The notes: generated by a model from the letters alone, not told the origin. 64,000 nt of DNA from an uncultured Candidatus Saccharibacteria bacterium (GCA_964654205.1 CAZZHR010000002.1:65800-129799); one strand, 5' to 3'; shown: positions 21,350 to 43,811, counted from the first letter of the stretch. Translations and numbers: made by a program.

Positions 21350-21649
21350 GAGCGATGATGCCTGTGGCCGGACGCACGATTTATCTAATATTCTACTACT
21401 CTTTTCGCCAATTGGACGTGTATCGGACACTATTACGTGTGGACAAGCCTAAGCAGAATTTGTACCGGACATTTTTTACATTTTTTCCCACAAGTTCGTA
21501 TCAACGCACAAAAAATTCTCCGTTTTTTTGAAAAAAAGCCTCTTCACTACAACCTCTCACCTCTTACCTACCCCCCTCCTCCCGGCCGACTCGGGCATCC
21601 GAGGAGCGACGTAGAGCGGTATTCCGCGCGTGTGTGGCGCAGAAAATGA

Positions 21650-28622: not shown

Positions 28623-30854
28623 CTAGAGTACTTCGGCCGTACCGGTACGTATCTGCTCAATGACAGGATCCGCCTGCTCTCCAATACCCGGGATAGCGCG
28701 CTTCGCTTCTTCGAGCGCCGCGATCGCCGCCGCGCGATTGCCGGAGAGGTAGTGTATCGCGGCAAGCGTGAAATAGAGCTGCGCATCCTGTGGATTTGCG
28801 CGGATGGCAGCTTCCCAAATCGGCACCGCGCGCACGAGCTGGTTGGTCGAGCGATACGCGGCGAGCACGCGCGAATCGGCCGCCTGGCCTTTCTCGACGT
28901 ATGGTGCGAGCACCTCTTCTCCCTCAGCCATCTGGCCGTTCAAAATGAGCCCAGAGCCGTAAAGCACGGCCGCAGTCGCGAATGACGCGTCGAGTTCGTG
29001 CGCCTGTTTGTAATACGAGAGCGCCGAGGCGGTATCGCCGCGCGCTATCGCGTTCTCCGCAAGCTGGAACATTATTGCCTGCTTTTTCGGAGAGTCTTCG
29101 AGCGCCCGTTCGTACGCTGCCTTCGCATCGTCGTGCAATCCATAGGCTCCATAGAGCACGCCGAGAAAGAGTGGAAAACGCGCATCCAGCGGCGACATGT
29201 CCTCCTGTTTCCGCATTTCCGATTCCGCGAGCGCAAAGAACTGCTGCTTCGTGGCCTCGGGTATGTCGAGCTGGCTCGCCTGTGCTGCCATTTGCGCGAG
29301 CTGCTCCCGGGCTTCCTGCATGCCAAATGTGCCGAGCTCAATCGACTGCCTCATGTACTCCAGATTCGTTGCAATCTGACCCTGCGGTGCGATCGCCTGG
29401 AGCAGAAGCCTGTTCGCAGCGAGCGGCTTTTGGTTGACACCCCATGCGAGGAAAAGCAGCGCGAGTGCACATGCGAGCGCGATGTACGGGATGTACGCAC
29501 GGTTGACTACTGCGCTCCAGAGCACTTTTGCTTCTTGCGCCTTACTGGCTCGATATGCGATAAACGCGAGCACCGTCCCAAAGAGGATGTAGCTTGTCAC
29601 GTTGTCGAAGACGAAGAAGTTGTGCACGAAGTAGCCCGCGAGGAGTCCCGTGAGTATCGAGCGCTCCGCTATCGAGAATCCATCCGGCCGTCCCGTCAAG
29701 ACACTTCGCCAGAGCGCGAATAGCGCAGCGAAGAATATCGAGAGATACGCGAGCAGGCCGAGCGTTCCCCCTGCGACCCACCAGTCGAAAATGATGTTGT
29801 GCACGCGGTCAAACCACGGCTCCTGGCTGTGCATGCGCGGGTCGTAGTACTTGTCGAAAACGAGCGCGTAATTCTCCTGACCCCAGCCCAAAATGGGCTT
29901 CTCCTGTACACCCTGCCATGCCATCTGCCAGTTGATGAATCGCGCCTTCGTCGTCGCGTCGTCGAGTGAGATGGTCGCAAGACGCTGGAGGAAGCCGATG
30001 CGCTGCACCCACGTCTGCTCTTTCACTAAGAAGAACCCGCCGATAATGACGAGGAGCCCTACCACCATCGCCGCCGACGCTCTCCATGCGTTGCGCGAAT
30101 TTTGAGCCTGCATGAGCACGAGCAGCGCGGAAAGGAGCGCGCCGCCGACGAGACCGAGAATCGCACCGCGCGTACCGGTGAGGAGAAGTGCGATGGTGTC
30201 GAGCACAATGATAGAGCCGTACATAAGCGAGATGCCGACGCGCTTTCCCTCGCCCCTTTCCACCCACTGCTGCGCCCAGAGCATCGCCGCGAGGAATATG
30301 TGGAACAGCATGTATGCAGCGAAGTAGATGGGGTTGCCGAATGTCGCGTCGATGCGGCCGCTCAGTCCCGCTGCTCCACCCTGACCGAGTGCAATCTGGC
30401 CGGTAACTTGGAAGAGGCCGTATATCGAGAGGTACGCCGAGACGCCGAGCGTCGTCCACCACAGCCACCGCCAGAGTTTCTCCGTCTGGAGCATCGAGGC
30501 TGCAACCACGGTGTAGACGAGGAGATGGGCAAGCGTCACCCACCCGTCCATGCGCTCGTAGTTGCTCCAGATGCTCTTAAAGGGGTATTCGCCGAAGATG
30601 TCGGCAAGCCCGATGATGGCAACAAATACAGCGAGTGCCGCGAGCACCCATGAGCGCCGGGGTCTATACGCGGGATTGACGAGTGCGAGCGCGAGCCACG
30701 CTGCCGCGCTTATCTCGACAACGATGCGAAAGGCGAAGTTTTTACCCGTGATGTAGGGGAAAAAGAGCGACGAAGTGACGAGGAGGCACACGAAGGGGAG
30801 CGCAAATACGCCAGCAAGGGCAATGAATCGGAGCGTCTTCTCAAGGACAGTCAT
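28623..30854 (-). CDS. O-antigen ligase/polymerase-like (Wzy_C) polytopic membrane protein with C-terminal TPR repeats
   Basis: About 12 TM helices plus a 'RFINWQMAWQGVQEKPILGWGQENYALVF' periplasmic loop typical of the WaaL/Wzy_C family. C-terminal ~250 aa of TPR-like repeats. Start trimmed to 'MTVLEKTL'. Confidence 0.7.
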   Translation of the reverse strand: MTVLEKTLRFIALAGVFALPFVCLLVTSSLFFPYITGKNFAFRIVVEISAAAWLALALVNPAYRPRRSWVLAALAVFVAIIGLADIFGEYPFKSIWSNYERMDGWVTLAHLLVYTVVAASMLQTEKLWRWLWWTTLGVSAYLSIYGLFQVTGQIALGQGGAAGLSGRIDATFGNPIYFAAYMLFHIFLAAMLWAQQWVERGEGKRVGISLMYGSIIVLDTIALLLTGTRGAILGLVGGALLSALLVLMQAQNSRNAWRASAAMVVGLLVIIGGFFLVKEQTWVQRIGFLQRLATISLDDATTKARFINWQMAWQGVQEKPILGWGQENYALVFDKYYDPRMHSQEPWFDRVHNIIFDWWVAGGTLGLLAYLSIFFAALFALWRSVLTGRPDGFSIAERSILTGLLAGYFVHNFFVFDNVTSYILFGTVLAFIAYRASKAQEAKVLWSAVVNRAYIPYIALACALALLFLAWGVNQKPLAANRLLLQAIAPQGQIATNLEYMRQSIELGTFGMQEAREQLAQMAAQASQLDIPEATKQQFFALAESEMRKQEDMSPLDARFPLFLGVLYGAYGLHDDAKAAYERALEDSPKKQAIMFQLAENAIARGDTASALSYYKQAHELDASFATAAVLYGSGLILNGQMAEGEEVLAPYVEKGQAADSRVLAAYRSTNQLVRAVPIWEAAIRANPQDAQLYFTLAAIHYLSGNRAAAIAALEEAKRAIPGIGEQADPVIEQIRTGTAEVL

Positions 30855-30867
30855 AGCCGGGATTCTA

Positions 30868-31686
30868 TCACGAACGCTTCTTGCGCGTCGGCCGGCCATG
30901 GTCGTCTTCGATGCGGACAATGTCCTCCTCATCGAAATCGCCGTATGCGACCTCCACGACGATGCCGCCTTTCTTCGACTCGAGCCTGTGTACCTGTTTC
31001 TTGCCCACACAGTACGTCTCGCCCCTTTTGAGCCTCACCTGCTCCGCTTTGCCCTTTGCATCGTGGAGGGTCGCTAAGGCATCGCCCTCTACAAGGAGCC
31101 AGCACTCGCTGCGACGATGATGGTATTGCAGACTCAACCGACTCTTGGGCTTTATGTAAATGGTCTTGAGATTCCAGTCCTTGCCACTGTCCCAGCCGTA
31201 GTATTCGCCCCACGGCCGTACTGTTTTCTTCACCGGTTTTGCCGCTTTCGCGATCATCCAGGACGAAGACTGTACTTTCCCTCCGTGACCAACTCGGTAC
31301 TTCCGCGCGATGCCGAGCTCGATGCACACAGAGTCCTCTGGCGTATTCGACTGTACCCTGTCGCCGCCATTGGCGAAGACGTGCGGGCGCAGCTTCCGGA
31401 GCGTGCGCGAGACACTCATATCGGGGTCGTTCTCCGCGTGGTCGGTGAGCACCACCTTGTCGACGAACGGGAGCGACCGTATCATCTCTGCGCGCTCTTT
31501 CTCCGGCATAAAAGCGAAACCTTTCTTAGACTTGAGCCAATTGTCATTGTTGATGATGACAACAAGCTTGTCGCCGAGCTTCTTTGCCTCCTTAAACATA
31601 CGCACATGTCCGATATGGAGTGGGTCGAACCCCCCCGACACAGCGACCCATCGAACCTTTTTGCTACCGTATCGTGCCTTGGCCAT
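30868..31686 (-). CDS. Cytidylyltransferase-like (HxGH) nucleotidyltransferase fused to a C-terminal cupin domain
   Basis: 'VAVSGGFDPLHIGHVRMFKEAKKLGD' (HIGH motif). C-terminal 'WGEYYG...LQYHHRRSECWLLVEGDA' is a cupin_2-like domain, as in the type II mannose-6-phosphate isomerase C-terminus. Confidence 0.65.
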   Translation of the reverse strand: MAKARYGSKKVRWVAVSGGFDPLHIGHVRMFKEAKKLGDKLVVIINNDNWLKSKKGFAFMPEKERAEMIRSLPFVDKVVLTDHAENDPDMSVSRTLRKLRPHVFANGGDRVQSNTPEDSVCIELGIARKYRVGHGGKVQSSSWMIAKAAKPVKKTVRPWGEYYGWDSGKDWNLKTIYIKPKSRLSLQYHHRRSECWLLVEGDALATLHDAKGKAEQVRLKRGETYCVGKKQVHRLESKKGGIVVEVAYGDFDEEDIVRIEDDHGRPTRKKRS

Positions 31687-33627: not shown

Positions 33628-34724
33628 AGACGGCAATCGTCACCACAACGATATACGTGCCGAGACTCTTGGCTTCCTATGCCGACGACGCAAAGAAGCA
33701 CGGACACAACCCTATCTTTATCGTAGTCGCGGACAAGAAAACACCGCCGGAGGCCGAGGCGTTCTGCGCAGAACTCGCGAAAACATCGGGGTTTCGCGTC
33801 GAGTACTTTACGGTCGAGCGTCAGGACGAATACCTCTCTCGCTTCCCTGCACTGAAGGCTCACTTACCGTGGAATTGCATCCAGAGGCGCAATGTCGGGC
33901 TCCTCTATGCGTTTGAAGAAGGTTGCGAGACGATTATTACGATTGACGACGACAACTTCCGCGTAACTGAAGACTACATAGGAGCGCATGTTGTCAGCGG
34001 CGAGCGCGAGTGCGACGTAATCTCGACGACAACAGGCTGGCTCAACGTGTGTACTACTCTGAAAGAAAAGCACGGCCGGACTTTCTATCACCGCGGCTTC
34101 CCCCTCGAGAAGCGTCATCTTGAAGAAAACTGGAAGACACAAACACAGACCGTGCGGCCAGTCGTCAACGCCGGTCTCTGGCTCGGCGACCCGGACGTCG
34201 ACGCCATGGAGCGGCTCTACTGGTCCAATGAGCCGACAGAAGCGACCGAATACACAAGCACGCAAAACTACGCTCCGTCAAAGGGCATATGGACGCCTTT
34301 CAATTCACAGAACACCGCCATTGCGCGCCGAGCTATCCCCGCGTATTTTCTCAGTCCCATGGTCGGCCGGTACGATGACATTTGGGCCGCCTACATCATC
34401 AAAAGAATCGCGGACCACCTTGGCGAGTCCATCGTTTTCGGCGAACCTATCGTTCGACAAGAGCGGAACCCGCACAACTATTGGAAAGATCTCGACAATG
34501 AACGCTACGGGCATGCGCTCACTCTTCGTTTTACGCAGGTGCTCGATTCGATTGACCTAGAGGGAAAGGATTACGGCGAGTGCTACGCGGAACTCGTCGA
34601 CTCGCTGCCGACTACATTTACGTCGCTTGGCAAACTCTCCGACGTGGAGGACGCGTTCGTCGCCGGGTATTTTGAGGGTATGAGAGTATGGCGCGAGACA
34701 TTCCCTACCCAGCCCGGACAGTAA
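33624..34724 (+). CDS. Putative glycosyltransferase (RGP/GT75-like; DxD 'ITIDDDNF')
   Basis: Start trimmed to 'MKTAIVTTTIYVP' (ATGA overlap with the upstream stop). Weak resemblance to reversibly-glycosylated-polypeptide-type transferases. Confidence 0.4.
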   Translation: MKTAIVTTTIYVPRLLASYADDAKKHGHNPIFIVVADKKTPPEAEAFCAELAKTSGFRVEYFTVERQDEYLSRFPALKAHLPWNCIQRRNVGLLYAFEEGCETIITIDDDNFRVTEDYIGAHVVSGERECDVISTTTGWLNVCTTLKEKHGRTFYHRGFPLEKRHLEENWKTQTQTVRPVVNAGLWLGDPDVDAMERLYWSNEPTEATEYTSTQNYAPSKGIWTPFNSQNTAIARRAIPAYFLSPMVGRYDDIWAAYIIKRIADHLGESIVFGEPIVRQERNPHNYWKDLDNERYGHALTLRFTQVLDSIDLEGKDYGECYAELVDSLPTTFTSLGKLSDVEDAFVAGYFEGMRVWRETFPTQPGQ

Positions 34725-35055
34725 CGACGACACCAAGCAGTATCATCGCCAGGCCTATGGCCTGGAAAAGGGTGATGCGCTCGCCGAGGAGAATCGCTGC
34801 ACCTGTAGTGAGCACAAACGTCATACCTATCATAATGGGGTAGCCTACGGCGAGCGGCACAGAGCGCAGCGCGAGGAGGTAGAAACCGAGATTGAGTGCA
34901 AAGAGGACAGCAGCGCTCGCAGCGTACAGATGAGCAGCCGTGAACTCAAACCTAAACAATGCAGAAAAGGAAAACTGATTCGCAGCAGCAAACTTGAGCA
35001 GCACGTTCGCTGCAGCGTTGAGCGTGAAAGCGAGTGCGAGAAACATTAGGTTCAT
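34705..35055 (-). CDS. Small 4-TM SMR/EamA-like transporter (ArnE/ArnF-like flippase subunit candidate)
   Basis: 116 aa, four hydrophobic helices. Size and topology are typical of SMR/ArnE-F proteins. Confidence 0.5.
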   Translation of the reverse strand: MNLMFLALAFTLNAAANVLLKFAAANQFSFSALFRFEFTAAHLYAASAAVLFALNLGFYLLALRSVPLAVGYPIMIGMTFVLTTGAAILLGERITLFQAIGLAMILLGVVVTVRAG

Positions 35056-35069
35056 AGCGTAAGTCTATA

Positions 35070-36614
35070 CTATTCGTCCGACGGTAGCGTGCGCCAAATA
35101 CCGATACCTTTCTCGCCGCCTACCCTATGAATCTCCGAAAGATTCGCCCATGGGCTCTCGACACCCAAGAACTGCCTGTAACGATACTGGATATAGAGAT
35201 CAAAATCTGCAAGATAACCAATATGCTCCTCATCGAGATACGCCCAGAGTCTGCGCTCTCGGAGAGCAGAGGCCGCTTCATTGTTCACAAGCCCGTCGAG
35301 ATTAACGATTCTATGCTCGGAGAAATAGGCTTGCACGCCCGCGTTGAATACACCTATCGTAGAATTCTCGGGCAGGTTCTCGTTCATCCAATGCGCAGCC
35401 TCGTACATGACAAGTTGCTGCGACTGCGCATACCGAAGATCTTTTTCCCAAGCGAAAACAAAAAGGGCTCCGACAGCAAGCGCACAAACTGCTGACGGGA
35501 GTGGTCGCAGCCACCCCCCTTCCCGCCACCTTCCGAGCATCCAGGCTACGAATAGGACGAAGAAGATATTGAACGCCACAAAGTACCATTCTCGAAACGT
35601 CCATCGAATGCTCGCGCTGGTTATGAAATGAAGCAATGTCCCCGCAAAAAGAAAAGCTTCTACTGGCATTTTCAGATTCACAAACCGCTCTCGTGCAGAG
35701 ATTGCCCACGCAATAACTGCACCAATAAACATGAGCGCCAAGAGAGGCGCGCCAGTTTGGTCGATAACCTGGCGTACTGCGCGCTCTGTCATGTATACGA
35801 CTGCTTTCATCTGCACGAAAAGACCCTCTCCGTTGTCTACTTTCACCAATTCATGATTTACGATAGTTGAGGAAACAGACGAAGATGTGAACAGCATGCC
35901 GAAATTCACGAAATTCCACGCAAGCCACGGTGCAACAAAGACTGTCGCTACTAGGCCAGCAGCAATTGAGTGTCGAATACCGACTACGAAGCCGTGTCGA
36001 TACATTAGAAACACGAAAAAGAGCAAGAGGTAGAATACATTGTCGAGTCGGGCAAGCATGAGGAGACCCGCCGCGGCTCCGACGAACAGAAGTCGAAGCA
36101 TTGTCGGCGACTCACTGTAACGGACAGCGGCGAGCACGGTAGTAGATAGAAGCGCCAATGACAGCGGCGTTTCAAGTCCTGACGACATTCCGTAGAGGAC
36201 AAATGGATTGAAGAGCCAGAGTGCTAGTGCACTGGCTTGTACCCAGACACTATTCGTGTACCGGCGCAGAATGAATAAAAGGGTCACTGCGGTCAATGCG
36301 CTCAGAAGCACCGAGAGTGCAAGCGCCGCCCGGACGGGTTCGATATCCATTTCACTGCCCGTGGAAAATATTGAGAAGATTCCCGTGAGCATGACGAGCC
36401 AAAGCGGATGAAATCCATTCGTCGGATTCTCGCCGTCAAAGGTCACGCCGTTCCCCTCAATGATATTGCGCGCGATTTGGAAATAGTAGAATGAATCATC
36501 AGGGATAAGATCCGAGAGCCAGAAAGAGAGCGGCTGAAAGACCATCCACAGCTGGAGTATTAAGCCGACTGCAACAGTCAGGTACGGCAGCGGTCGCGCA
36601 GTCATACGAGTCAA
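35070..36614 (-). CDS. Polytopic membrane glycosyltransferase-like protein (GT-C fold, ArnT/PMT-like)
   Basis: At least 12 TM helices. N-terminal 'DDSFYYFQIARNI' resembles the DE/DD loop motif of GT-C (GT39/GT83) enzymes. Confidence 0.5.
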   Translation of the reverse strand: MTRMTARPLPYLTVAVGLILQLWMVFQPLSFWLSDLIPDDSFYYFQIARNIIEGNGVTFDGENPTNGFHPLWLVMLTGIFSIFSTGSEMDIEPVRAALALSVLLSALTAVTLLFILRRYTNSVWVQASALALWLFNPFVLYGMSSGLETPLSLALLSTTVLAAVRYSESPTMLRLLFVGAAAGLLMLARLDNVFYLLLFFVFLMYRHGFVVGIRHSIAAGLVATVFVAPWLAWNFVNFGMLFTSSSVSSTIVNHELVKVDNGEGLFVQMKAVVYMTERAVRQVIDQTGAPLLALMFIGAVIAWAISARERFVNLKMPVEAFLFAGTLLHFITSASIRWTFREWYFVAFNIFFVLFVAWMLGRWREGGWLRPLPSAVCALAVGALFVFAWEKDLRYAQSQQLVMYEAAHWMNENLPENSTIGVFNAGVQAYFSEHRIVNLDGLVNNEAASALRERRLWAYLDEEHIGYLADFDLYIQYRYRQFLGVESPWANLSEIHRVGGEKGIGIWRTLPSDE

Positions 36615-36650: not shown

Positions 36651-37913
36651 ATGAAACAACGCCTGCTGGGACTGATAGATCAGGCGAGCGGGTTGCTCCG
36701 CACGGATCTCCGCTATTCGATGTCGGGCGGCTTTTTTCTTACGGCCATGCAAATCACGAGCGCTATCATCAGCTTTGGCCTCACAGTAGCGTTCGCCAAC
36801 CTGCTCCCGGTTGATACATATGGTACGTACCGGTACATGCTCGCAGCATACGCCATCCTTTCCATCTTCGCGCTCCCAGGCATAGAGACCGCCCTCATGC
36901 GAGCAGTATCCGTCGGCAAGGAAGGTGCGTTCGCAGAAAGTCTGCGGACCAAATTCCGGTGGGGATTACTAGGCTCGCTCGCCGCCGTCTTCTACGCTGG
37001 TTATCTTTTCTCTCAGGACAGCATGGTAATGGCCGGCCTTTTCATTGTCGTTGCACTCATGCTCCCGGCGATGGAATCCCTAGCCCTGTACAGCACCTTC
37101 TTCAACGGCAAGAAGCTTTTTCGACAGTGGGCTGCGTTCGATATTGCCGCGCAGCTGCTGTCAGTAACGGCGCTCGTTGGGGCGATGATCGCTACGAAAA
37201 ACATCGTAGCGCTCCTGCTCGCCTACTTCCTGCCATACATCATCGTCCGCGTAATCGGAAGCTGGTACGTGAAGGAGTATCACGTGACAAGCGACACACC
37301 AGACAGCGAGCTCATGCCGTACGCTAAATCTGTTACATTCTTTCAAATCATTTCGAAGATTTCTTCCTCGCTCGACCAAATAGTCCTCTACCACGTGCTA
37401 GGTCCCGCGCAGGTCGCCATCTATTCGCTCGCGATGGCTATCCCGAATCGGGCTCAGGGATTATTCAAAATCAGCGGTATTCTCGCGTTCCCCAAATTCG
37501 CCGCCCGAACGAGCGGAGAAGTCGTGTATACGCTACCGAGAAAGATGCTTCTTTTCGGTGCCGGCATCATGCTTGTGTGTGTGGTGTACGTGCTTATAGC
37601 GCCGTACCTATTTGCACTTCTCTTCCCACAATATATGGCATCTCTCACCTACTCGCAGGTCGCGATATTCTTTACACTTTCTGCCGTGACCTACCCGTTT
37701 AGTTCGTTCCTATTTTCGCATAAAAGACTCGCGGAGAATTACGCAATCTCGCTCGGGAGCTTCTTCAGTAAAATTATTGCGCTCGCCGTATTCGTTCCTT
37801 TTTACGGTATCTGGGGCGCGATTATTAGCGTCCTAGTCGCGTCCGCTACCACAACCACGATATCGGTCATCGTACTGTGGCGCGAGCGACGCAGCTCTCC
37901 TGTCGCTTCCTAG
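36651..37913 (+). CDS. Polysaccharide biosynthesis protein / Wzx-type flippase (MOP superfamily)
   Basis: 420 aa with about 12-14 TM helices, a Polysacc_synt-like profile. Confidence 0.65.
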   Translation: MKQRLLGLIDQASGLLRTDLRYSMSGGFFLTAMQITSAIISFGLTVAFANLLPVDTYGTYRYMLAAYAILSIFALPGIETALMRAVSVGKEGAFAESLRTKFRWGLLGSLAAVFYAGYLFSQDSMVMAGLFIVVALMLPAMESLALYSTFFNGKKLFRQWAAFDIAAQLLSVTALVGAMIATKNIVALLLAYFLPYIIVRVIGSWYVKEYHVTSDTPDSELMPYAKSVTFFQIISKISSSLDQIVLYHVLGPAQVAIYSLAMAIPNRAQGLFKISGILAFPKFAARTSGEVVYTLPRKMLLFGAGIMLVCVVYVLIAPYLFALLFPQYMASLTYSQVAIFFTLSAVTYPFSSFLFSHKRLAENYAISLGSFFSKIIALAVFVPFYGIWGAIISVLVASATTTTISVIVLWRERRSSPVAS

Positions 37914-38865
37914 CAATGCAGTACAAGGATATGTAGCGCTTTCTTGTCGGGAGCATGACGAGGTAGATGATGATAGCTGGTATCCCAAATAGAACCGCGT
38001 CCTTCATCGACGCAAGTGTCGCAGTAACAGATATGACTCGCTCCTTCGGACTTCCTATATGAATGTGGCCATCATTCCGGAGTGCGCGCTTGGTTTTGTC
38101 GACAAGACCGAAGGAGAATGCTGTGCCATAGAGGAACCGCAACTTCACAATAAGGTAACGCAGCCCACCGAAGTATCGAGTCATGTAGACAATTTCGAAC
38201 CCATGTCGCTCAAGATACATTTGAAGAGAGTGTCTGTCCCAGCACGTGAGGTGTCGGGGTGGAAGGTCGCCGCGCATGAGCCAGTCGGCATGGTGCCTAT
38301 AAGGCATCGACATGGCGACGTATCCCCCATCTCGAAGTGATTGTTTGACCGCTTCGATAAAGTCGGCGTGATTATCGATATGTTCAAACACGTCAAAAAA
38401 TGTTACGAGGTCGAACTTTCTCTCTGGATGCTTGCGCGCATACTCAATGATGTCCCCGAGCTCGACATTGGGCAGTTGAAAAAGTGTGTTCGCGACCCGT
38501 ACCGCATCTCGATCAAAATCCAGCCCATAGGGATCCCATTTTTGAGAACGTGCGTAGTACAGAAAATTGCCCGTCCCACAGCCGACGTCGAGCACGCGGC
38601 CATACATCGGTGCGAGTTTCGAGATAACTTTGAGATGGTTCCAATTCGGCTTCATAAGCGGATCTCTGTTGCGACCGGCGTATCGTGTATCTTTTTCGTA
38701 CCATTCAGCGCCTGGATTTTTCAAAGGGGACCAAAACCACGCATCGCATGTGCCGCAGTCAAAGAGCATATAGGTTATGCCACTATCTTCGTGTGTGCGA
38801 CCGCGCGGTCTCGCATCGGTTGCTCCGCATAAAGGACATATCGATGCAGGTACCGTCTGTGCCAT
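37867..38865 (-). CDS. Class I SAM-dependent methyltransferase with N-terminal Cys4 zinc ribbon and C-terminal TM helix
   Basis: 'CPLCG...CGTC' ribbon and a 'VLDVGCGTGNF' SAM motif I. Start trimmed to 'MAQTVPAS'; the upstream part of the ORF overlaps the divergent gene. Confidence 0.7.
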   Translation of the reverse strand: MAQTVPASICPLCGATDARPRGRTHEDSGITYMLFDCGTCDAWFWSPLKNPGAEWYEKDTRYAGRNRDPLMKPNWNHLKVISKLAPMYGRVLDVGCGTGNFLYYARSQKWDPYGLDFDRDAVRVANTLFQLPNVELGDIIEYARKHPERKFDLVTFFDVFEHIDNHADFIEAVKQSLRDGGYVAMSMPYRHHADWLMRGDLPPRHLTCWDRHSLQMYLERHGFEIVYMTRYFGGLRYLIVKLRFLYGTAFSFGLVDKTKRALRNDGHIHIGSPKERVISVTATLASMKDAVLFGIPAIIIYLVMLPTRKRYISLYCIARKRQESCVARATVR

Positions 38866-38976
38866 ACAAGAAGTGAATGCGTGACACTTTAGCATGAATT
38901 GAACCGAGTGGCTTAGTCTGATAAGGTTGCTCTGGATGGGCTCTTTGACAGAGGGCCGCAACGAAGGGGTGAAACG

Positions 38977-40740
38977 ATGAAGAAAAAGTTCATCCTCGCG
39001 GCTCGCTATTACAGCATCGAGCCGCTGGGGATCCTGTACTTGGCCGGTCTCGTGAAAGCGATGCCGGACTGGGACTGCAAGGTGGTGCTCGTTCGCGAGT
39101 ACAATTTTGAGGAGCTCTACGATGCCGTGCGAAGCTGGCAGCCTGACCTGGTCGGCTTCCAGATCTGGACGGGATACCACATTCCCGCCTTCGCCGCCTG
39201 CGACCGCATACGGGGTATGGGCGTGCCCGTCGTGATAGGCGGCCCGCACGCTACGTACTTCTCGGATGAATGCAAGAAGCATGCAGAGTGGGTAGTCCAA
39301 GGAAGCGGCTTCGGCCTCCTCCAGAAGATACTCACGGGTCTTGGTGGCGGCGTTCACTTCGACAAGTCGGGCCGAGAAGAGGTTTTCCCCCTTCCTGACC
39401 GCGACGTCGTCTACAATGCGTATCCCGAGTTGGGTAACAGCCCGATTAAGAGCATCTTCGGCTCAGTCGGGTGCCCAATGACGTGCACGTACTGTTATGC
39501 GCCCTCGTTCAACGAGATGCATGGTGGCTTCAAACTAACCGTGCGTCCCGTCGACGACATCGTGCGCGAGGCGAAGGCGATCATGGAGCAGTGGCCACTT
39601 CGAATGGTCTACTTCCAGGACGACATTTTCGGGTACAACATCCGTTGGCTCGAGGAGTTCTCCAAGAAGTGGAAATCCGAGGTTGGAGTCCCGTACCACT
39701 GCCAGATCCGATTGGAGCTGACCCGACACGACAAAGGCGATCAGCGCCTAGACCTCTTCGCTGAAGGCGGCTGCAGCGGCATTACGCTCGCGATAGAAAG
39801 TGGCAACGCTTTTCTTCGCGACCGCGTGCTCTTCCGCCACATGCCCGACGAACTCATCGTCGAGGGATGCCGGAAGATCATGGATCGAGGGATGACGCTC
39901 CGGACGGAGCAGATTCTCGCGGTGCCCTTTAGCGACACGGTCACAGACCTCGCGACGCTCGACCTCAATAACCGTATCAGACCTACGATGGCGTGGACAT
40001 CGATCCTCGCCCCCTATGCCGGGACGGACATGGGCACGATCGCGAAGAATTTCGGATTCTATGACGGCAACAACGATGACCTGTCGGAATCTTTCTTCGA
40101 CAGGAGCGTACTCCGACATGTCGAAGGAGGCCCGCGGGACATCGAGGCAATCGTTGAAAAATCCGGAACTCCCGCGAACGTGCACGCGGCGAAGCAACCG
40201 CTTTTGAGCCTTCGGGCGCACAGGCGCAACAGCTACGACGCAGATGTGGTCGACAAGACTGGATTGAAGCACGGCACTATTCGGTATCTGGACCAGGTCG
40301 ACAACGAGAGGTACTGCAGGGACACCGTTCGTCTTCAGCGCCTGTTCAACTGGCTGGCAATGGTGCCGCAGGCAGCGAAGCTCGGACGCATGCTTGTGGA
40401 CATTCCGGAGGAGGAGTGGACATGGGCACGCATCGGCCGCGAGAGCGAGAAGCACCTGCACGATACGGGCGTCGGCGACGTGGAGTCATGGAAGCGCGAG
40501 CTTGCACGCGAAATGTCCGTCGAGGTATTGCCCGAGCCGATCGCTCAAAACATTCCGTTCTTCGCGCACTTCCCTGCGGGAGGCGTGCTCGCGCGGAGCG
40601 TGGTGGAAAAAGATGTCCTGCGTTCCACGAGAACGACGGGCGAGGCACTCGATGAACTCGGGACACTCGCGCGCCGGCACCTCTTCCACTTCGGCCTCTA
40701 CAAGATCGAAGAAGGATTGGCGCCGATCGCAAGTCGCTGA
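38977..40740 (+). CDS. B12-binding radical SAM enzyme (class B)
   Basis: N-terminal cobalamin-binding Rossmann region, then 'CPMTCTYC' (CxxxCxxC) radical-SAM cluster motif. 587 aa. Confidence 0.8.
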   Translation: MKKKFILAARYYSIEPLGILYLAGLVKAMPDWDCKVVLVREYNFEELYDAVRSWQPDLVGFQIWTGYHIPAFAACDRIRGMGVPVVIGGPHATYFSDECKKHAEWVVQGSGFGLLQKILTGLGGGVHFDKSGREEVFPLPDRDVVYNAYPELGNSPIKSIFGSVGCPMTCTYCYAPSFNEMHGGFKLTVRPVDDIVREAKAIMEQWPLRMVYFQDDIFGYNIRWLEEFSKKWKSEVGVPYHCQIRLELTRHDKGDQRLDLFAEGGCSGITLAIESGNAFLRDRVLFRHMPDELIVEGCRKIMDRGMTLRTEQILAVPFSDTVTDLATLDLNNRIRPTMAWTSILAPYAGTDMGTIAKNFGFYDGNNDDLSESFFDRSVLRHVEGGPRDIEAIVEKSGTPANVHAAKQPLLSLRAHRRNSYDADVVDKTGLKHGTIRYLDQVDNERYCRDTVRLQRLFNWLAMVPQAAKLGRMLVDIPEEEWTWARIGRESEKHLHDTGVGDVESWKRELAREMSVEVLPEPIAQNIPFFAHFPAGGVLARSVVEKDVLRSTRTTGEALDELGTLARRHLFHFGLYKIEEGLAPIASR

Positions 40741-40764
40741 ATTCGTTGCTTCACAGTTCTTCCG

Positions 40765-40800
40765 CCCCGGGCTTGTCCCGGGGCCTTTTCTTTTACTACG
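40765..40800 (+). terminator. Intrinsic terminator (gccccgggc-ttgt-cccggggcc + UUUUCUUUU)
   Basis: GC stem followed by 'ttttctttt', after the rSAM stop. Confidence 0.6.
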
Positions 40801-40821: not shown

Positions 40822-41259
40822 ATGACAAAGAAACACCCTATCACCGTGGTTGTATCCGGAGGTTTCGACCCTGTACATATCGGCCACGTCCGAATGTTTC
40901 GCGAAGCCAAAAAGCTCGGAGACACGCTTATTGTGGTCTTGAATAATGACAATTGGGTGAAGGACAAAAAGGGGTACGTATTCATGCCCGCCAAGGAGCG
41001 GAAAGAAGTTATTGAAAGCATTAAATATGTTGATAAGGTCGCACTCTCATCTCACATACCAGGCGACGCGGACAAGACCATCGCGCGTGAACTGAGGCGT
41101 ATTAGACCCGATATTTTTGCCAATGGTGGTGGTGCGAAGCATATGCCTGGTAATGAACTCGACACCTGTCGTGAACTCGGCATTCAACTCGCTTACGACG
41201 TGGGGGGCAGAAAGAAAGTTCAGTCGAGCTCGCGGCTCGTACAAAATTCAAGGCACTGA
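40822..41259 (+). CDS. Cytidylyltransferase-like (HxGH) nucleotidyltransferase, paralogue of 30868..31686 N-terminal domain
   Basis: 'VVVSGGFDPVHIGHVRMFREAKKLGD', about 60% identical to the other copy over 120 aa. Confidence 0.65.
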   Translation: MTKKHPITVVVSGGFDPVHIGHVRMFREAKKLGDTLIVVLNNDNWVKDKKGYVFMPAKERKEVIESIKYVDKVALSSHIPGDADKTIARELRRIRPDIFANGGGAKHMPGNELDTCRELGIQLAYDVGGRKKVQSSSRLVQNSRH

Positions 41260-41329
41260 TTGACAATAGTGATGTAAATCTGCATAGTTGCACCGGACCA
41301 TCCCGAAACGATTGGTGTGGGAGACAATA

Positions 41330-42205
41330 ATGCTGACATTAGATGCGGCCACGCTGCTCTCGCGAGCTGCGTACGGCCAAGACATGTTCGTCACGGAAGC
41401 CCAGGTGGCAGAGCGCGGCGAGCGACTCGCGATCAATGTTCCGGAAGGGGCGCGCGTCGCCACCAGTCGCGCGGAGCGGTGGGAGCTCTCGGCTACGAAC
41501 AATCCGAAGTGGCGCTGGTCGCAAGGCGGTGCGCTTCCACTCATGCGTCTGCGCGACGCGATCGTCGCTCCGCTTCAGCTCTCGGATTCGACGTTGCCCT
41601 TGTACGCCAATCACCTTACGGCGGCGACAGGGCTCGCGAGCTCACCCGAGGAATGGGTCAATCCCAGACGCCTTATGCGTGAAGCGTTCGAAGAGATCGC
41701 GATCGCGACGCCGACCGGTATAGCGATTCCCATCTTCAACGACCCCGAACTCGACACGCTTTCCTTCGGCACATTACCTGGGGTTCTGTCGCTCATCGAG
41801 ATGCAGAGTGACTTGCCAGACCTCTTCCACCTCGGTGTGTTCAACCGCGTGCGGGCGCAACACCTGCCACTTCGCGGCGAACGCTCGATTAGCGTGAGTA
41901 TTTTCGGAAGGATCGTCTCGCACATGCGAGCGGTCGCGGTCTTGGACGAGACGACGCGCGGAGTCGATATTATGCATGCGTATCAAATCGATCTGCGTGC
42001 GTGGAGGCTCGACGAGATCTCGCTCTTTTGCGCCGAGTCACGCGACGGTGTGCCGACCAATAGTGAGATCGCTTGTCTCGAGTTCAATGACGACTTCGAG
42101 CCTCTGCGAATCATCCGGTCGTTCAAGACAGGCAAGGCGATTGAGGGCACGGGCTCGATGGAGCGGATCTCGCCGGTTCTGAGGGCGACGCTCGCATCGC
42201 TCTGA
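41330..42205 (+). CDS. Hypothetical protein
   Basis: ORF 41288..42205 with probable start 'MLTLDAATLL'. No family recognised. Followed by a terminator. Confidence 0.4.
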   Translation: MLTLDAATLLSRAAYGQDMFVTEAQVAERGERLAINVPEGARVATSRAERWELSATNNPKWRWSQGGALPLMRLRDAIVAPLQLSDSTLPLYANHLTAATGLASSPEEWVNPRRLMREAFEEIAIATPTGIAIPIFNDPELDTLSFGTLPGVLSLIEMQSDLPDLFHLGVFNRVRAQHLPLRGERSISVSIFGRIVSHMRAVAVLDETTRGVDIMHAYQIDLRAWRLDEISLFCAESRDGVPTNSEIACLEFNDDFEPLRIIRSFKTGKAIEGTGSMERISPVLRATLASL

Positions 42206-42215
42206 AGCACACGCA

Positions 42216-42246
42216 ATCTTGCGAGCCCCGGCGACGCCGGGGCTTG
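42216..42246 (+). terminator. Intrinsic terminator (agccccggcg-acg-ccggggct + UGUUCUUUU)
   Basis: Read directly. Confidence 0.55.
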
Positions 42247-42285
42247 TTCTTTTATATGAGCGCGCAATCGGCTACTATGCATGTA

Positions 42286-43419
42286 ATGAACAGAATCAGG
42301 GTCGCCATAATGACCGACGATTTTGATCCGCGACCAGAGCGGACTTTGTACTATCGCCGCCTCATTGAGCGCCTCATTGCATCCCCAGAGCTGGAAGTTA
42401 CCCTCGTCCATGCGAAAGCGGTGCCAGATGAACCGCTCTATGCGCAGACGCGCGAGGTCATCATGCCGCGTGTACAGCTGCCATTCGGTTCGCGATTCGT
42501 GGCATTTTTGCGCTACTGTTTGACCACCGAGGACCGATACGACATCGTGCACTGGCTGAAACCTCGTATTTTTCCTTTCTTCTGGCTTTTCCCAGCGAGG
42601 CGGATCATCGTTATGGCGCATGGCGGTGGTGACGTGTTTGTTCCAGGCATATGGACCCTCTCACGTCGCATATTTAACTGGACAATGATCTATTTTGGCA
42701 ACCGTATCCATACACTTATTGCAGTATCTGAGTACGCGAATAAAGAAATTGTGTACGCTTACAGAGCGCATCCGGAAAAAGTTGTGACCATCTATAACCC
42801 TGTCGATCCTCTGTACACACAGCCCTTTTCAGAAACTGTCGAGGCAGAGATCCGCCGCGAACACGGGCTAAGGGAGCCCTACTTCTTTTCGATAAGCCGA
42901 TTCCGCCTGCATAAAAATATTGGCCGTACTGTCGAGGCATTCGTGAGATACAGGACAGAACATCCCGAGAGTCGTGAACATCTTGCGCTCGGAGGTGGCT
43001 CGCTCGACGAGTTCGAGACGGCGTACGGCCCTCTTCTCGATTCCCCGTATACTAAGGATATCCACTTCCTAGGATATATCCCTTCCGAACATCTCCCAGC
43101 TCTCTACAGAGGCGCCACTGCGCTCGTATTCATATCGCTCAATGAGGGCTTTGGACTACCTGTCGTCGAGGCTATGGCCTGCAAGACGCCTGTCATCGTT
43201 TCGAATGTGACGTCGCTTCCTGAGATTGCAGGCGACGCTGGTGTCATAGTGGATCCGCAGAGCACCAGCGACGTAGCCGCCGCTATGTCCAGGGTCGCTC
43301 TCGATGAGCCATTTAGGAGGCAGCTCGTGGAGCGTGGGTACAAACGCAGTACATTCTTTACGTGGGACAAGAACTTCGCCTCTGTTCTCGCACTCTACAA
43401 ACGCGCTCTCTCTCAATGA
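42286..43419 (+). CDS. Family 4 (GT-B) glycosyltransferase
   Basis: 'EGFGLPVVEAMACKTPVIVSNVTSLPEIAGDAGVIVDP' is the GT4 E-x7-E region. Confidence 0.75.
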   Translation: MNRIRVAIMTDDFDPRPERTLYYRRLIERLIASPELEVTLVHAKAVPDEPLYAQTREVIMPRVQLPFGSRFVAFLRYCLTTEDRYDIVHWLKPRIFPFFWLFPARRIIVMAHGGGDVFVPGIWTLSRRIFNWTMIYFGNRIHTLIAVSEYANKEIVYAYRAHPEKVVTIYNPVDPLYTQPFSETVEAEIRREHGLREPYFFSISRFRLHKNIGRTVEAFVRYRTEHPESREHLALGGGSLDEFETAYGPLLDSPYTKDIHFLGYIPSEHLPALYRGATALVFISLNEGFGLPVVEAMACKTPVIVSNVTSLPEIAGDAGVIVDPQSTSDVAAAMSRVALDEPFRRQLVERGYKRSTFFTWDKNFASVLALYKRALSQ

Positions 43420-43811
43420 CTATGGAACTCCGCACACCACTTCCCGAAGCTCTCGATCGACTCTCAATCCTCACACTCAAGCTCGAACACACACCCGAGA
43501 ATGATCCTCGACGTACGAGCGTGAAGAAGGAATATGATTTTTATCGCGCCGTGGTGGAAAGCTATCGCACGGATGGTACTCCTGTACAGAACGCGTGGCT
43601 CGATGAGCTTGTAGCGGTCAATCGCACATGCTGGGATATGGAGGACGCCATCCGTGAAGGCAAGGAGGGAGGCCTTACACTAGAGGAAGTAGGTAGGCGT
43701 GCGCTTGAACTAAGAGATCTCAATAAACAACGCATCTCCGTGAAGAATCGGATTGCGAAGGAGTGCGGCCTCGACTTTTTCGAGGTCAAAATACGGCACG
43801 CGTCTGAATAG
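43416..43811 (+). CDS. Hypothetical protein (131 aa)
   Basis: ATGA overlap with the upstream GT4. No family recognised. Confidence 0.35.
   Translation: MTMELRTPLPEALDRLSILTLKLEHTPENDPRRTSVKKEYDFYRAVVESYRTDGTPVQNAWLDELVAVNRTCWDMEDAIREGKEGGLTLEEVGRRALELRDLNKQRISVKNRIAKECGLDFFEVKIRHASE

What the first reader, a model, noticed from the sequence alone, without database searches (positions are those of the whole stretch)
37867..40740. Divergent zinc-ribbon SAM methyltransferase and B12-binding radical SAM enzyme inside the glycan locus
Class B (cobalamin) radical SAM enzymes typically catalyse methylation at unactivated carbons. This one is paired head-to-head (111-bp shared promoter region) with a membrane-anchored SAM MTase and sits among glycosyltransferases. 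That suggests C-methylation (or another radical modification) of a sugar or lipid carrier, a rare decoration.
Basis: inference. Interest (0 to 1): 0.55.

Follow-up and report, generated by a model that had tools for sequence, protein, structure and literature searches.

The report
Conserved radical-SAM/methyltransferase pair for surface glycan
Two neighbouring genes in a sugar-coat gene cluster of an ultra-small (CPR) bacterium encode an uncharacterised vitamin-B12-type radical enzyme and a zinc-ribbon methyltransferase; the pair recurs in many CPR bacteria and in one DPANN archaeon and probably modifies a surface sugar, but the exact chemistry is unknown.

Summary
A 587-aa B12-binding-domain radical SAM protein (38977-40740, +) lies head-to-head, 111 bp apart, with a 332-aa four-Cys zinc-ribbon class I methyltransferase (37867-38865, -). 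Both sit inside a ~29-kb glycan locus.

The rSAM belongs to no curated family. Its best profile and fold matches are weak and are to sugar-acting, non-methylating enzymes (HpnJ, AprD4). Unlike the cobalamin-free AprD4 lineage, it keeps recognisable B12-domain motifs.

It founds a tight ~590-aa orthologous group (50-79% identity) with a unique 200-aa C-terminal domain. The group is found mainly in CPR bacteria, and in DPANN archaea at 31-36% identity. It is about as conserved as SecA, so it is not a rare decoration.

In related CPR contigs the same module recurs beside murB-secA: GT4, a small protein, the MTase, the rSAM, GT-C, Wzx and Wzy_C/TPR. Elsewhere, including phage-like contigs, relatives sit next to GT9 "heptosyltransferase" and class I MTase genes.

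My best reading is a radical modification of a glycan-precursor sugar, most likely cobalamin-dependent C-methylation (about 0.4), followed by a second methylation by the MTase. An AprD4-like dehydration feeding a TcaB9-like C-methyltransferase is a serious rival. No cobalamin genes were seen in the window.

The parts
38977..40740 (+). B12-binding-domain radical SAM protein, 587 aa; founding member of an uncharacterised ~590-aa orthologous group
   Evidence: AF2 model has pLDDT 92.6.
38986..39309 (+). N-terminal Rossmann B12-binding-type domain (residues 4-111). Conserved loops: E15-P-L-G18, [IV]-[WY]64-T-G66-x-H68, and G88-G-P-H91.
   Evidence: PF02310 at 45.1 bits. Most of these positions are invariant or nearly so from CPR to DPANN; position 64 is W or Y, and T65 and H91 are conserved within the CPR set. 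The motifs are absent in an AprD4-like protein.
39472..39495 (+). CxxxCxxC radical SAM [4Fe-4S] motif (C166, C170, C173)
   Evidence: Invariant in all 37 orthologues.
39463..39900 (+). Radical SAM core (residues 163-308)
   Evidence: PF04055 at 49.2 bits. Aligns with AprD4 residues 173-403.
40129..40737 (+). Family-specific C-terminal domain (residues ~385-587; three-stranded sheet plus helices), not matched by any Pfam model
   Evidence: No Pfam hit at E<=5. Confidently modelled. Present in only a few 50%-identity representatives.
37867..38865 (-). Zinc-ribbon class I SAM methyltransferase, 332 aa, with a probable C-terminal membrane anchor
   Evidence: AF2 model has pLDDT 88.6. Best folds are MtmC, KijD1 and TcaB9.
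38746..38838 (-). Four-cysteine zinc ribbon of the MTase (C10, C13, C37, C40)
   Evidence: Invariant in 22 CPR homologues and in the DPANN homologue.
37948..37998 (-). Hydrophobic segment A290-P306 of the MTase (probable membrane anchor)
   Evidence: Read from the sequence. Conserved FGxPA...MLP segment in CPR homologues. Helix 273-304 in the model.
38866..38976 (.). 111-bp divergent intergenic region
   Evidence: No sigma-70 consensus found. A GGGGTG Shine-Dalgarno-like element precedes the rSAM ATG.
40764..40784 (+). GC-rich hairpin followed by a T-run, directly after the rSAM stop codon (intrinsic-terminator-like)
   Evidence: 8 G-C pairs, loop of 5, tail CTTTTCTTTT.
40822..41259 (+). Small CTP_transf_like nucleotidyltransferase (RfaE-domain-II / TagD-like)
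   Evidence: A gene of this family lies within 10 kb of the rSAM in 11 of 31 orthologous loci.
42244..43419 (+). GT4 glycosyltransferase, part of the conserved module
   Evidence: 51-54% identical to the GT4 next to the MTase-rSAM pair in L085-L087, and 43% in L014.
43422..43811 (+). Small DUF4254/DUF6165-like protein (~129 aa) that always follows the module GT4
   Evidence: 53-57% identity in L085-L087; 46% to the L014 homologue.
35070..36614 (-). GT-C (PMT_2 / LA_3751-like) membrane glycosyltransferase of the module
   Evidence: 40-45% identical in L086 and L087.
36651..37913 (+). Wzx-type flippase (Polysacc_synt)
   Evidence: An orthologue in L085 is 30.5% identical; Polysacc_synt genes are also called in L086 and L087.
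28623..31010 (-). Wzy_C (O-antigen-ligase-like) plus TPR membrane protein. In most related CPR loci it lies just downstream of the rSAM, before murB-secA.

Best explanation
The two genes are the enzymatic core of a conserved cell-surface-glycan module of CPR (Patescibacteria) bacteria. The module comprises a GT4, a small DUF4254-like protein, the zinc-ribbon MTase, the B12-type rSAM, a GT-C, Wzx and Wzy_C/TPR. In related contigs it lies beside murB-secA.

The rSAM uses its [4Fe-4S] cluster and SAM to make a 5'-deoxyadenosyl radical. That radical abstracts a hydrogen from a sugar of a nucleotide- or lipid-linked glycan precursor. In the reading I commit to, methyl-cobalamin held base-off in the N-terminal Rossmann domain then delivers a methyl group to that unactivated carbon, which is C-methylation of the GenK, GenD1 or MoeK5 type. 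The membrane-tethered class I MTase adds a second methyl group (O-, N- or C-) to the same unit before export and transfer.

Shown: the architecture, the retained B12-domain motifs, the conserved pairing and the glycan context.

Inferred: cobalamin binding, methyl transfer, the identity of the sugar and the order of the steps.
For: Architecture:
- PF02310 plus PF04055, both above their cut-offs, and an invariant CxxxCxxC.

B12 domain:
- The most conserved N-domain positions sit on the loops after beta1, beta3 and beta4: E15-P-L-G18, [WY]64-T-G66-x-H68 and G88-G-P-H91.
- The beta3 loop lines up with the loop that supplies the residue under the corrin in TsrM (R69) and TokK (W76) (review PMC12931638).
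- In the Cbl-free AprD4 lineage, 10 of 11 relatives have no PF02310. An AprD4-like protein lacks both the beta3-loop motif and GGPH in a profile alignment.

Glycan role:
- Within 3 kb of the gene in 30 orthologous loci, a GT9 is present in 15, a class I MTase in 11, and either one in 21.
- Full nucleotide-heptose gene sets lie next to it in L022 and L008.
- The same MTase-rSAM pair occurs in L085-L087 and L027.
- The GT9 / Methyltransf_23 / B12-rSAM cassette recurs even on IMG/VR contigs.

Precedent: class B rSAMs that C-methylate sugars, such as GenK (PMC4039129) and the list in PMC12931638.
Against: - A Pfam B12-domain hit and conserved loops do not prove cobalamin binding.
- No B12 transport or salvage gene and no riboswitch is seen in the window genes scanned.
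- CPR and DPANN organisms generally cannot make cobalamin (my own knowledge).
- A dedicated class I MTase beside the rSAM, with a TcaB9-like fold, could account for all the methylation by itself.
- The sugar genes next to the rSAM differ between lineages: NeuB/CMP-sugar, DegT amino sugars, heptose, phosphonate and phosphoramidate sets. The substrate is therefore not identified.
Confidence: 0.4

Rival explanations
1. AprD4- or HpnJ-like chemistry without methyl transfer. The rSAM abstracts a hydrogen from a sugar diol and dehydrates or rearranges it to a deoxy-keto sugar. As in AprD4, the N-terminal domain would be structural or would bind something other than cobalamin. The resulting keto sugar would be the substrate of the neighbouring zinc-ribbon MTase, which C-methylates next to the carbonyl as TcaB9, KijD1 and MtmC do. 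One of the locus SDRs or aminotransferases would finish the sugar.
For: - HpnJ is the top NCBIfam profile for this protein and for most of its nearest relatives tested.
- The MTase's best fold matches are the zinc-domain NDP-ketosugar C3-methyltransferases MtmC, KijD1 and TcaB9, and it has the four-Cys N-terminal domain.
- SDR and aminotransferase genes are abundant in these loci.
- It removes the need for cobalamin in organisms that cannot make it.
Against: - The scores to AprD4 and HpnJ are about a tenth of the family cut-offs.
- The N-terminal domain keeps the B12-type motifs that AprD4-like proteins have lost.
- The MTase has no PF08421 or PF08484 match, and its fold E-values are only slightly better than those for unrelated class I MTases.
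Confidence: 0.3
2. The rSAM does not act on a glycan sugar at all. Instead it acts on the element common to all these loci: the polyprenyl-phosphate carrier, the acceptor (protein or cell-wall polymer), or a lipid. This would explain why the neighbouring sugar genes vary while the rSAM, the exporter and Wzy_C/TPR stay constant.
For: - In CPR loci the constant neighbours are Wzy_C/TPR, an exporter (ABC or Wzx), murB and secA, whereas the sugar-pathway genes differ from locus to locus.
- The rSAM is as conserved as SecA.
- Weak profile matches include lipid-modifying class B enzymes: HpnJ, HpnR and the ladderane lipid rSAM.
Against: - In DPANN archaea, other bacteria and phage-like contigs the gene travels with a GT9 and sugar kinase or nucleotidyltransferase genes, without Wzy_C, murB or secA. 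This points to the sugar.
- No lipid-biosynthesis genes are adjacent.
Confidence: 0.15
3. Fom3-like reaction. The rSAM methylates a small CMP/CDP-activated alcohol, phosphonate or phosphoramidate head group made by the adjacent CTP_transf_like nucleotidyltransferase, and that group is then attached to the glycan.
For: - A CTP_transf_like gene lies directly downstream in the window and within 10 kb in 11 of 31 orthologous loci.
- L008 has a Fom1-like CTP_transf plus PEP-mutase fusion. L026 has a Cj1416-1418-like phosphoramidate gene set; L027 carries homologues of the same three gene clusters.
- PhpK and Sden_1168 P-methyltransferase profiles are among the weak hits.
Against: - No PEP mutase or glutamine-kinase-like gene is in the window.
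- A terminator-like hairpin separates the rSAM from the nucleotidyltransferase.
- Most orthologous loci lack such genes.
- The nucleotidyltransferase scores equally as RfaE domain II, a heptose-1-phosphate adenylyltransferase.
Confidence: 0.08

Closest known systems
AprD4 (radical SAM 1,2-diol dehydratase of apramycin biosynthesis; PDB 6FD2)
   Same: It is the best sequence, profile and fold match. It has the same two-domain layout, a Rossmann-like N-domain followed by the rSAM barrel. It acts on a sugar ring.
   Different: Identity is only about 19%, and the score is 59 bits against a family cut-off of 500. AprD4 binds no cobalamin (PMC12931638), and its relatives lack PF02310, the beta3-loop motif and GGPH, all of which the window protein retains. 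AprD4 has no counterpart of the 200-aa C-terminal domain. It belongs to an aminoglycoside antibiotic pathway, not a surface-glycan locus.
HpnJ (hopanoid-associated class B rSAM, TIGR03471)
   Same: It is the top NCBIfam profile for this protein and for most of its nearest relatives tested. It has class B architecture. It is thought to rearrange a sugar head group rather than methylate it (my own knowledge).
   Different: The score is 60 bits against a cut-off of 577.6. No hopanoid genes are nearby. The match covers only the rSAM core.
Cobalamin-dependent rSAM C-methyltransferases with solved structures (MgmA/QCMT 9CCB, TsrM 6WTE, TokK 7KDX, CysS 9N1B) and the sugar C-methylases GenK, GenD1 and MoeK5
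   Different: Identity is 11-19%. No curated methylase family is matched: PhpK 45, HpnR 20 and BchE 17 bits against cut-offs of 480-650. The C-terminal domain is different. Methyl transfer has not been demonstrated.
TcaB9, KijD1 and MtmC, NDP-ketosugar C3-methyltransferases (compared with the MTase partner)
   Same: An N-terminal four-cysteine zinc domain followed by a class I SAM fold. They are the top Foldseek matches (E 2e-13 to 1e-11).
   Different: Identity is 14-19%. There is no PF08421 or PF08484 match. The C-terminal Methyltransf_14 domain is replaced by a helical segment with a hydrophobic anchor. The margin over other class I MTases is small.

Membership tests
Class B (B12-binding-domain) radical SAM enzymes | Radical SAM core with a CxxxCxxC [4Fe-4S] motif | tested here: met
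   PF04055 at 49.2 bits against 29.5. C166/C170/C173 are invariant in 37 orthologues.
Class B (B12-binding-domain) radical SAM enzymes | N-terminal Rossmann-type B12-binding domain recognisable by sequence | tested here: met
   PF02310 at 45.1 bits against 32.1. 119 of the 120 listed homologues carry it; the exception is a truncated 504-aa entry. The model has a five-strand Rossmann fold.
Class B (B12-binding-domain) radical SAM enzymes | Conserved cofactor-loop motifs (GG motif after beta4; the loop after beta3 that lies under the corrin) | tested here: met
   G88-G-P-H91 and [WY]64-T-G66-x-H68 are conserved from CPR to DPANN. The beta3 loop aligns with the TsrM R69 and TokK Y74-W76 loop. Both motifs are absent in an AprD4-like protein. 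The alignments to TsrM and TokK are weak.
Class B (B12-binding-domain) radical SAM enzymes | Actual binding of, and dependence on, cobalamin | not testable with these tools
   Needs purified protein, or at least cofactor co-folding.
Cobalamin-dependent rSAM methyltransferases (GenK, Fom3, TsrM, HpnP, PhpK and others) | Membership of a curated methylase family, or a close characterised homologue | tested here: not met
   NCBIfam scores: PhpK 44.6 against 600, Sden_1168 27.9 against 575, HpnR 20.3 against 650. No other methylase model reaches E<=0.01. The nearest relatives are also unassigned.
Cobalamin-dependent rSAM methyltransferases (GenK, Fom3, TsrM, HpnP, PhpK and others) | Methyl transfer (SAH formed together with 5'-deoxyadenosine; +14 Da product) | not testable with these tools
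   Requires a biochemical assay.
AprD4 family radical SAM diol-dehydratase (NF033070) | Score above the family cut-off | tested here: not met
   58.8 bits against 500.
AprD4 family radical SAM diol-dehydratase (NF033070) | Degenerate N-terminal domain that does not bind cobalamin | tested here: not met
   The window protein keeps PF02310 and the loop motifs. 10 of 11 AprD4-core relatives have no PF02310. P0391 lacks the motifs.
HpnJ (TIGR03471) | Score above the cut-off, and a hopanoid gene neighbourhood | tested here: not met
   60.2 bits against 577.6. The neighbours scanned with Pfam are glycan genes only; 34705-35055 and 41288-42205 have no Pfam match.
   17.1 bits against 481.
TcaB9 / KijD1 / MtmC sugar C-methyltransferases (for the MTase) | N-terminal four-Cys zinc domain plus a class I SAM domain | tested here: met
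   C10, C13, C37 and C40 are invariant. Methyltransf_23 at 89 bits. These enzymes are the top fold matches.
TcaB9 / KijD1 / MtmC sugar C-methyltransferases (for the MTase) | Pfam Methyltransf_13 (PF08421) and Methyltransf_14 (PF08484) domains | tested here: not met
   Neither is listed, even at E<=5.

The most novel reading that the evidence does not exclude
A cobalamin-dependent radical SAM sugar-modifying enzyme is a near-core part of the surface-glycan machinery of ultra-small CPR bacteria and DPANN archaea. Together with a glycosyltransferase (GT9, or a GT4 plus a small protein) and a class I methyltransferase, it forms a mobile cassette that is also carried on phage-like contigs. The cassette installs an unusual, doubly modified sugar, for example a C- and O-methylated heptose-type sugar. 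If so, organisms that cannot make B12 would depend on host- or community-derived corrinoid to build the surface through which they attach to their hosts.
Probability: 0.15. Interest if true: 0.7.

Novelty: new variant of a known kind. Interest (0 to 1): 0.5.

Why it matters
Class B radical SAM enzymes are a very large and mostly uncharacterised group. This search alone found about 28,000 50%-identity representatives related to this protein.

This family stands out for four reasons:
- It is strongly conserved in CPR bacteria and is present in DPANN archaea, whose cell-surface chemistry is essentially unknown.
- It has a unique C-terminal domain.
- It travels with a glycosyltransferase and a methyltransferase as a compact cassette suitable for heterologous reconstitution.
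- It raises a testable question: do genome-reduced symbionts need external cobalamin to build their envelope?

If it is a sugar C-methylase, or an AprD4-type deoxygenase acting on a surface glycan, it would extend chemistry known only from antibiotic pathways to primary envelope biogenesis.

Tried and rejected
- Literature searches found nothing on this family. I tried CPR/Patescibacteria with radical SAM and B12, heptosyltransferase with B12-binding, O-antigen with B12-binding, and DUF4254.
- An Rfam scan of the window found no cobalamin riboswitch or any other RNA family.
- The sigma-70 scan found no promoter consensus in the 111-bp gap.
- Several first-pass 'MTase' hits (L006, L013, L015) were artefacts. 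The over-extended antisense ORF 37867-39357 overlaps the rSAM gene. I redid the search with the trimmed 332-aa protein.
- I searched with the AprD4 core, reconstructed from printed alignments. It did not recover AprD4 itself, only relatives of 32-51% identity, and I used those instead.
- Residue-level inspection of a cobalamin pocket was not possible, because model coordinates are not returned.
- I considered an auxiliary Fe-S cluster in the N-domain, as in MiaB and RimO, and rejected it. There is no conserved three-Cys set there.
- GT9, GmhA and GmhB homologues were sought in the window and not found. Only two CTP_transf_like genes and a distant PfkB at 112-1101 turned up.
It was repeated with A3.

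Full report
**1. The observation**

The window holds a 587-aa ORF at 38977-40740 on the + strand. It matches Pfam B12-binding (PF02310) at 45.1 bits against a cut-off of 32.1, over residues 4-111. It matches Radical_SAM (PF04055) at 49.2 bits against 29.5, over residues 163-308. The cluster motif is C166-x3-C170-x2-C173.

On the opposite strand, the longest ORF (37867-39357) runs antisense into the rSAM gene. The real start is ATG 38865, giving 332 aa. The N-termini of the homologues support this start.

The 332-aa protein is a class I methyltransferase (Methyltransf_23, 89 bits). It has four invariant cysteines, C10, C13, C37 and C40, forming a zinc ribbon. It also has a conserved C-terminal hydrophobic stretch, A290-P306.

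Pfam scans of the neighbours show that 28.6-57.2 kb is one large glycan locus. It contains:
- Wzy_C/TPR;
- a CTP_transf_like-cupin protein;
- GT2;
- several SDR epimerases;
- an RGP-like protein;
- a GT-C of the PMT_2 type;
- Wzx;
- the MTase and the rSAM;
- a CTP_transf_like nucleotidyltransferase;
- seven proteins with GT4-type (Glycos_transf_1) domains, one of them a UGDH-GT4 fusion;
- a DegT aminotransferase;
- a formyltransferase;
- a second methyltransferase.

A 'shared promoter' is not demonstrated, because a simple sigma-70 scan finds nothing in the gap. The same scan finds a strong terminator-like hairpin (40764-40784) directly after the rSAM stop codon. The rSAM is therefore probably not co-transcribed with the downstream nucleotidyltransferase.

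**2. What the rSAM is**

No NCBIfam family is reached. The best scores are:

| Family | Score (bits) | Cut-off (bits) |
|---|---|---|
| HpnJ | 60.2 | 577.6 |
| AprD4 | 58.8 | 500 |
| PhpK | 44.6 | 600 |
| ApyD | 40.6 | 750 |
| HpnR | 20.3 | 650 |
| BchE | 17.1 | 481 |

Against PDB sequences, the best hit is AprD4 (6FD2, E 3.4e-16, rSAM core only). Next comes the glutamine C-methylase MgmA/QCMT (9CCB, E 5e-5).

An AlphaFold model built on 26 orthologues is confident, with pLDDT 92.6 and pTM 0.90. Its fold neighbours are:

| Search | Ranking |
|---|---|
| Foldseek against PDB | AprD4 (E 1.5e-18), then TsrM, MgmA, MiaB, TokK, CysS |

So this is a class-B-architecture enzyme. It is roughly equidistant, at 11-19% identity, from a cobalamin-free sugar dehydratase and from genuine cobalamin-dependent methylases.

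The last ~200 residues form a well-modelled small sheet plus a helical domain. They match no Pfam model, even at E<=5.

**3. The family**

The protein search found a tight family of ~580-620-aa proteins, 50-70% identical over the full length. Where sources name them, they come from Patescibacteria, Parcubacteria, Kaiserbacteria or Paceibacterota. Sporadic members are named from Stellaceae and Pyrinomonadaceae.

The scan of species-representative genomes added CPR MAGs at up to 79% identity, plus Acidobacteriota and Polyangiales. It also added full-length homologues at 31-36% identity in DPANN archaea (Woesearchaeota, Nanoarchaeota, AR15), in a Methanosarcinales MAG and in a few other bacterial MAGs.

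In the exhaustive profile search, 27,971 representatives scored E<=1e-3 and 1,291 scored E<=1e-30. Only a handful carry the C-terminal domain. The nearest 430-490-aa relatives are also unassigned to any NCBIfam family.

The rest of the window fits a CPR genome: split transketolase, GAPDH, GatB, SecA and giant surface-type proteins.

Within syntenic CPR loci the rSAM is about as conserved as SecA. Its identity to the window protein is 62, 51, 53 and 79% in L005, L007, L020 and L006. SecA in the same loci is 57, 61, 62 and 67% identical.

**4. Does it keep a cobalamin site?**

A 2026 review (PMC12931638) makes three relevant points. Class B enzymes bind cobalamin base-off, with no DxHxxG histidine. 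A residue from the Rossmann domain sits under the corrin, W76 in TokK and R69 in TsrM. AprD4 does not bind cobalamin, although sequence networks place it among B12-rSAMs.

In the 37-sequence CPR-plus-DPANN alignment, the conserved N-domain positions are E15, P16, L17, G18, L22, G66, H68, G88, G89 and P90 (invariant in all or in all but one sequence). Position 64 is always aromatic, W in CPR and Y in DPANN. All except L22 lie on the loops after strands beta1, beta3 and beta4, where a Rossmann domain holds its ligand.

The beta3 loop (VGFQIW64TGYH) lines up with TsrM ...VGVTVR69 in a weak hmmsearch alignment. Through the intermediate relative P0181, it lines up with TokK ...SCY74VW76.

The AprD4 lineage looks different. 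I searched with the AprD4 core, reconstructed from the printed alignments. Of its 11 closest relatives, 10 carry only PF04055 and no PF02310. In contrast, 119 of the 120 listed members of the window's family carry PF02310; the exception is a truncated 504-aa entry.

A profile alignment of the family against the AprD4-like protein P0391 shows a gap at the WTGY motif. It also shows MLGASRSV where the family has IGGPHATY.

The evidence favours a functional cofactor site, but it cannot prove one.

The N-domain has no conserved three-cysteine set, so a MiaB- or RimO-type auxiliary cluster is unlikely.

**5. Genomic context**

I called ORFs in 21 orthologous loci and clustered the neighbours. I then scored 31 loci with HMMs built from those clusters. 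Two context types emerge.

(a) CPR type. In L085, L086 and L087, where the rSAM is 61-65% identical, the same module recurs as in the window:
- a small DUF4254/DUF6165-like protein (53-57% identical to window 43422-43811);
- a GT4 (51-54%);
- the zinc-ribbon MTase (48-54%), here immediately upstream of the rSAM and co-directional with it;
- the rSAM;
- a PMT_2 GT-C (40-45%; in L086 and L087 only);
- Wzx (30.5% in L085);
- Wzy_C/TPR (34% in L085);
- then murB, with secA fragments also called in L087.

In L005, L020, L007, L006 and L168, the order is an ABC exporter, the rSAM, then Wzy_C/TPR, MurB and SecA in the same order (one extra gene follows the rSAM in L007). The upstream sugar genes differ, for example NeuB and CMP-sugar synthetase in L168.

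(b) GT9 type. In nine of the ten loci of the 31-36%-identity group (all the DPANN ones), and in Polyangiales and some CPR loci, a GT9 'heptosyltransferase'-family gene is directly adjacent. Counting all loci, a GT9 lies within 10 kb in 15 of 31. It is often accompanied by RfaE-like PfkB kinase and CTP_transf_like nucleotidyltransferase genes. L022 also has a GmhA-like SIS protein, and L008 a GmhB-like HAD phosphatase. Those two loci therefore hold most or all of the nucleotide-heptose pathway.

Within 3 kb of the rSAM in 30 orthologous loci, a GT9 occurs in 15, a class I MTase in 11, and either one in 21.

The true zinc-ribbon MTase orthologue sits beside the rSAM in the window, L085, L086, L087 and the Woesearchaeota locus L027. 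In L170 it lies about 4.8 kb away, directly upstream of a second, 500-aa B12-rSAM. In L027 the arrangement is again head-to-head, 97 bp apart between the longest ORFs (31% identity, E 3e-32).

Shorter relatives without the C-terminal domain, on IMG/VR contigs, are 37-39% identical. These too are flanked by GT9 and Methyltransf_23 genes, confirmed by Pfam.

The window itself has no GT9, GmhA or GmhB homologue. There the GT4 plus small protein occupy the equivalent position.

Some loci add other head-group chemistry. L008 has a Fom1-like CTP_transf-PEP-mutase fusion. L026 has a Cj1416-1418-like phosphoramidate gene set, and L027 carries homologues of the same three gene clusters.

**6. The methyltransferase**

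It belongs to a tight CPR family of ~318 aa, 47-57% identical. Several of its members appear to lie on the same contigs as rSAM family members, judging by matching contig lengths. L085, L086 and L087 confirm this directly.

Its model (pLDDT 88.6) best matches MtmC, KijD1 and TcaB9. These are NDP-ketosugar C3-methyltransferases that also have an N-terminal four-cysteine zinc domain (E 2e-13 to 1e-11). The margin over other class I methyltransferases is small, and the Pfam domains typical of that family are not detected. So the partner enzyme itself is a candidate sugar C-methyltransferase.

**7. Mechanism**

What is shown:
- a radical SAM enzyme with a retained B12-type domain;
- a conserved link to a glycosyltransferase and a class I methyltransferase;
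- a setting in surface-glycan loci.

What is inferred: the enzyme abstracts a hydrogen from a sugar of a nucleotide- or lipid-linked precursor.

I rank the possible chemistries as follows.

| Reading | Confidence | Main basis |
|---|---|---|
| Cobalamin-dependent C-methylation, followed by a second methylation by the MTase | ~0.4 | Retained B12 motifs; precedent of GenK-type sugar C-methylases |
| AprD4/HpnJ-like dehydration or rearrangement to a keto sugar, which the TcaB9-like MTase then C-methylates | ~0.3 | AprD4 and HpnJ are the nearest characterised enzymes; the MTase fold; no need for B12 in organisms that cannot make it |
| Action on the common carrier or acceptor rather than on a sugar | ~0.15 | Constant Wzy_C/exporter neighbours, variable sugar genes |
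| Fom3-like methylation of a CMP/CDP-activated head group | <0.1 | Adjacent nucleotidyltransferase; phosphonate and phosphoramidate loci |

**8. Novelty and verdict**

The kind of enzyme is known: a class B radical SAM enzyme in sugar modification. This is a distinct, uncharacterised orthologous group. It has its own C-terminal domain, a new biological setting (the envelope glycan module of CPR, and DPANN loci) and a portable three-gene cassette. No literature on it was found.

The functional guess is reasonable but unproven, and the phrase 'rare decoration' understates how conserved the enzyme is. Interest is moderate, at 0.5. Uncharacterised class B rSAMs are common, but this one is unusually conserved in organisms whose surfaces are unknown, and it poses a clear, testable cobalamin-dependence question.

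Noticed in passing
window 14912-21430 (-) and 10115-14242 (-), with 14239-14901 (-) between them: There is a 2172-aa ORF with no Pfam match at all. Next to it is a 1375-aa protein with three DUF7483 stretches plus a SPRY domain. An IS200-like Y1 transposase gene separates them. These look like typical giant CPR surface proteins of unknown function.
   Followed up: no
window 27787-28437 (-): A 216-aa protein with a PaaX_M / Cas2-like domain lies just upstream of the glycan locus. I did not look for a CRISPR array.
   Followed up: no
window 33528-34724 (+): A protein matching the plant-type 'reversibly glycosylated polypeptide' family (RGP; my own knowledge links this family to UDP-arabinopyranose mutases; 37.5 bits) sits in a bacterial glycan locus. 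This hints at arabinofuranose in the glycan. It fits the GT-C (PMT_2) gene here and the UbiA prenyltransferase seen in L170.
   Followed up: no
window 41288-42205 (+): A 305-aa ORF between the nucleotidyltransferase and the module GT4 has no Pfam or NCBIfam match and no homologue in any fetched locus. It is partly overlapped by an opposite-strand ORF (41983-42621). It may be lineage-specific or not a gene.
   Followed up: partly
L008 15341-16855 (+) (Kaiserbacteria): A Fom1-like fusion of a CTP_transf_like nucleotidyltransferase with PEP mutase lies about 4 kb from the rSAM orthologue. It implies a phosphonate-decorated glycan in a CPR bacterium.
   Followed up: partly
L026 2209-6598 (Methanosarcinales MAG); homologous gene clusters in L027 62-2996 (Woesearchaeota): A three-gene set resembles the Campylobacter Cj1416-1418 phosphoramidate pathway (resemblance from my own knowledge). 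It comprises a CTP_transf+PPDK_N+PEP-utilizers protein, a GATase/Peptidase_C26 protein and an NTP_transf_3 protein. It lies next to the GT9-rSAM genes, with the zinc-ribbon MTase also present in L027 (Pfam on the L026 proteins; L027 by clustering).
   Followed up: partly
L169 11549-13066 and L170 3531-5033: A second, shorter (500-505 aa) B12-binding rSAM paralogue occurs in the same CPR glycan loci. In L170 a class I MTase gene lies directly upstream of it; in L169 an MTase lies two genes upstream, with a GT2 between.
   Followed up: no
L171-L177 (IMG/VR contigs): Short-form relatives of the rSAM (37-39% identity in L171-L175, 29-32% in L176-L177; no C-terminal domain) occur on contigs classed as viral. 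In L171, L172, L175, L176 and L177 they are flanked by GT9 genes, with Methyltransf_23 genes as well in all but L172. I did not check whether these contigs are truly phage.
   Followed up: partly
window 49441-51441 (-): A 666-aa fusion of a UDP-glucose/GDP-mannose dehydrogenase with a GT4 glycosyltransferase.
   Followed up: no
window 59199-61079 (-): A TrwB/TraG-like type IV coupling protein lies just beyond the glycan locus.
   Followed up: no
L002/L003 8612-9712 (Stellaceae): In an alphaproteobacterial orthologue (68% identity) the rSAM is not in a glycan locus. It follows an MFS transporter and a GFO/IDH/MocA sugar-type oxidoreductase. This context could help identify the substrate.
   Followed up: no
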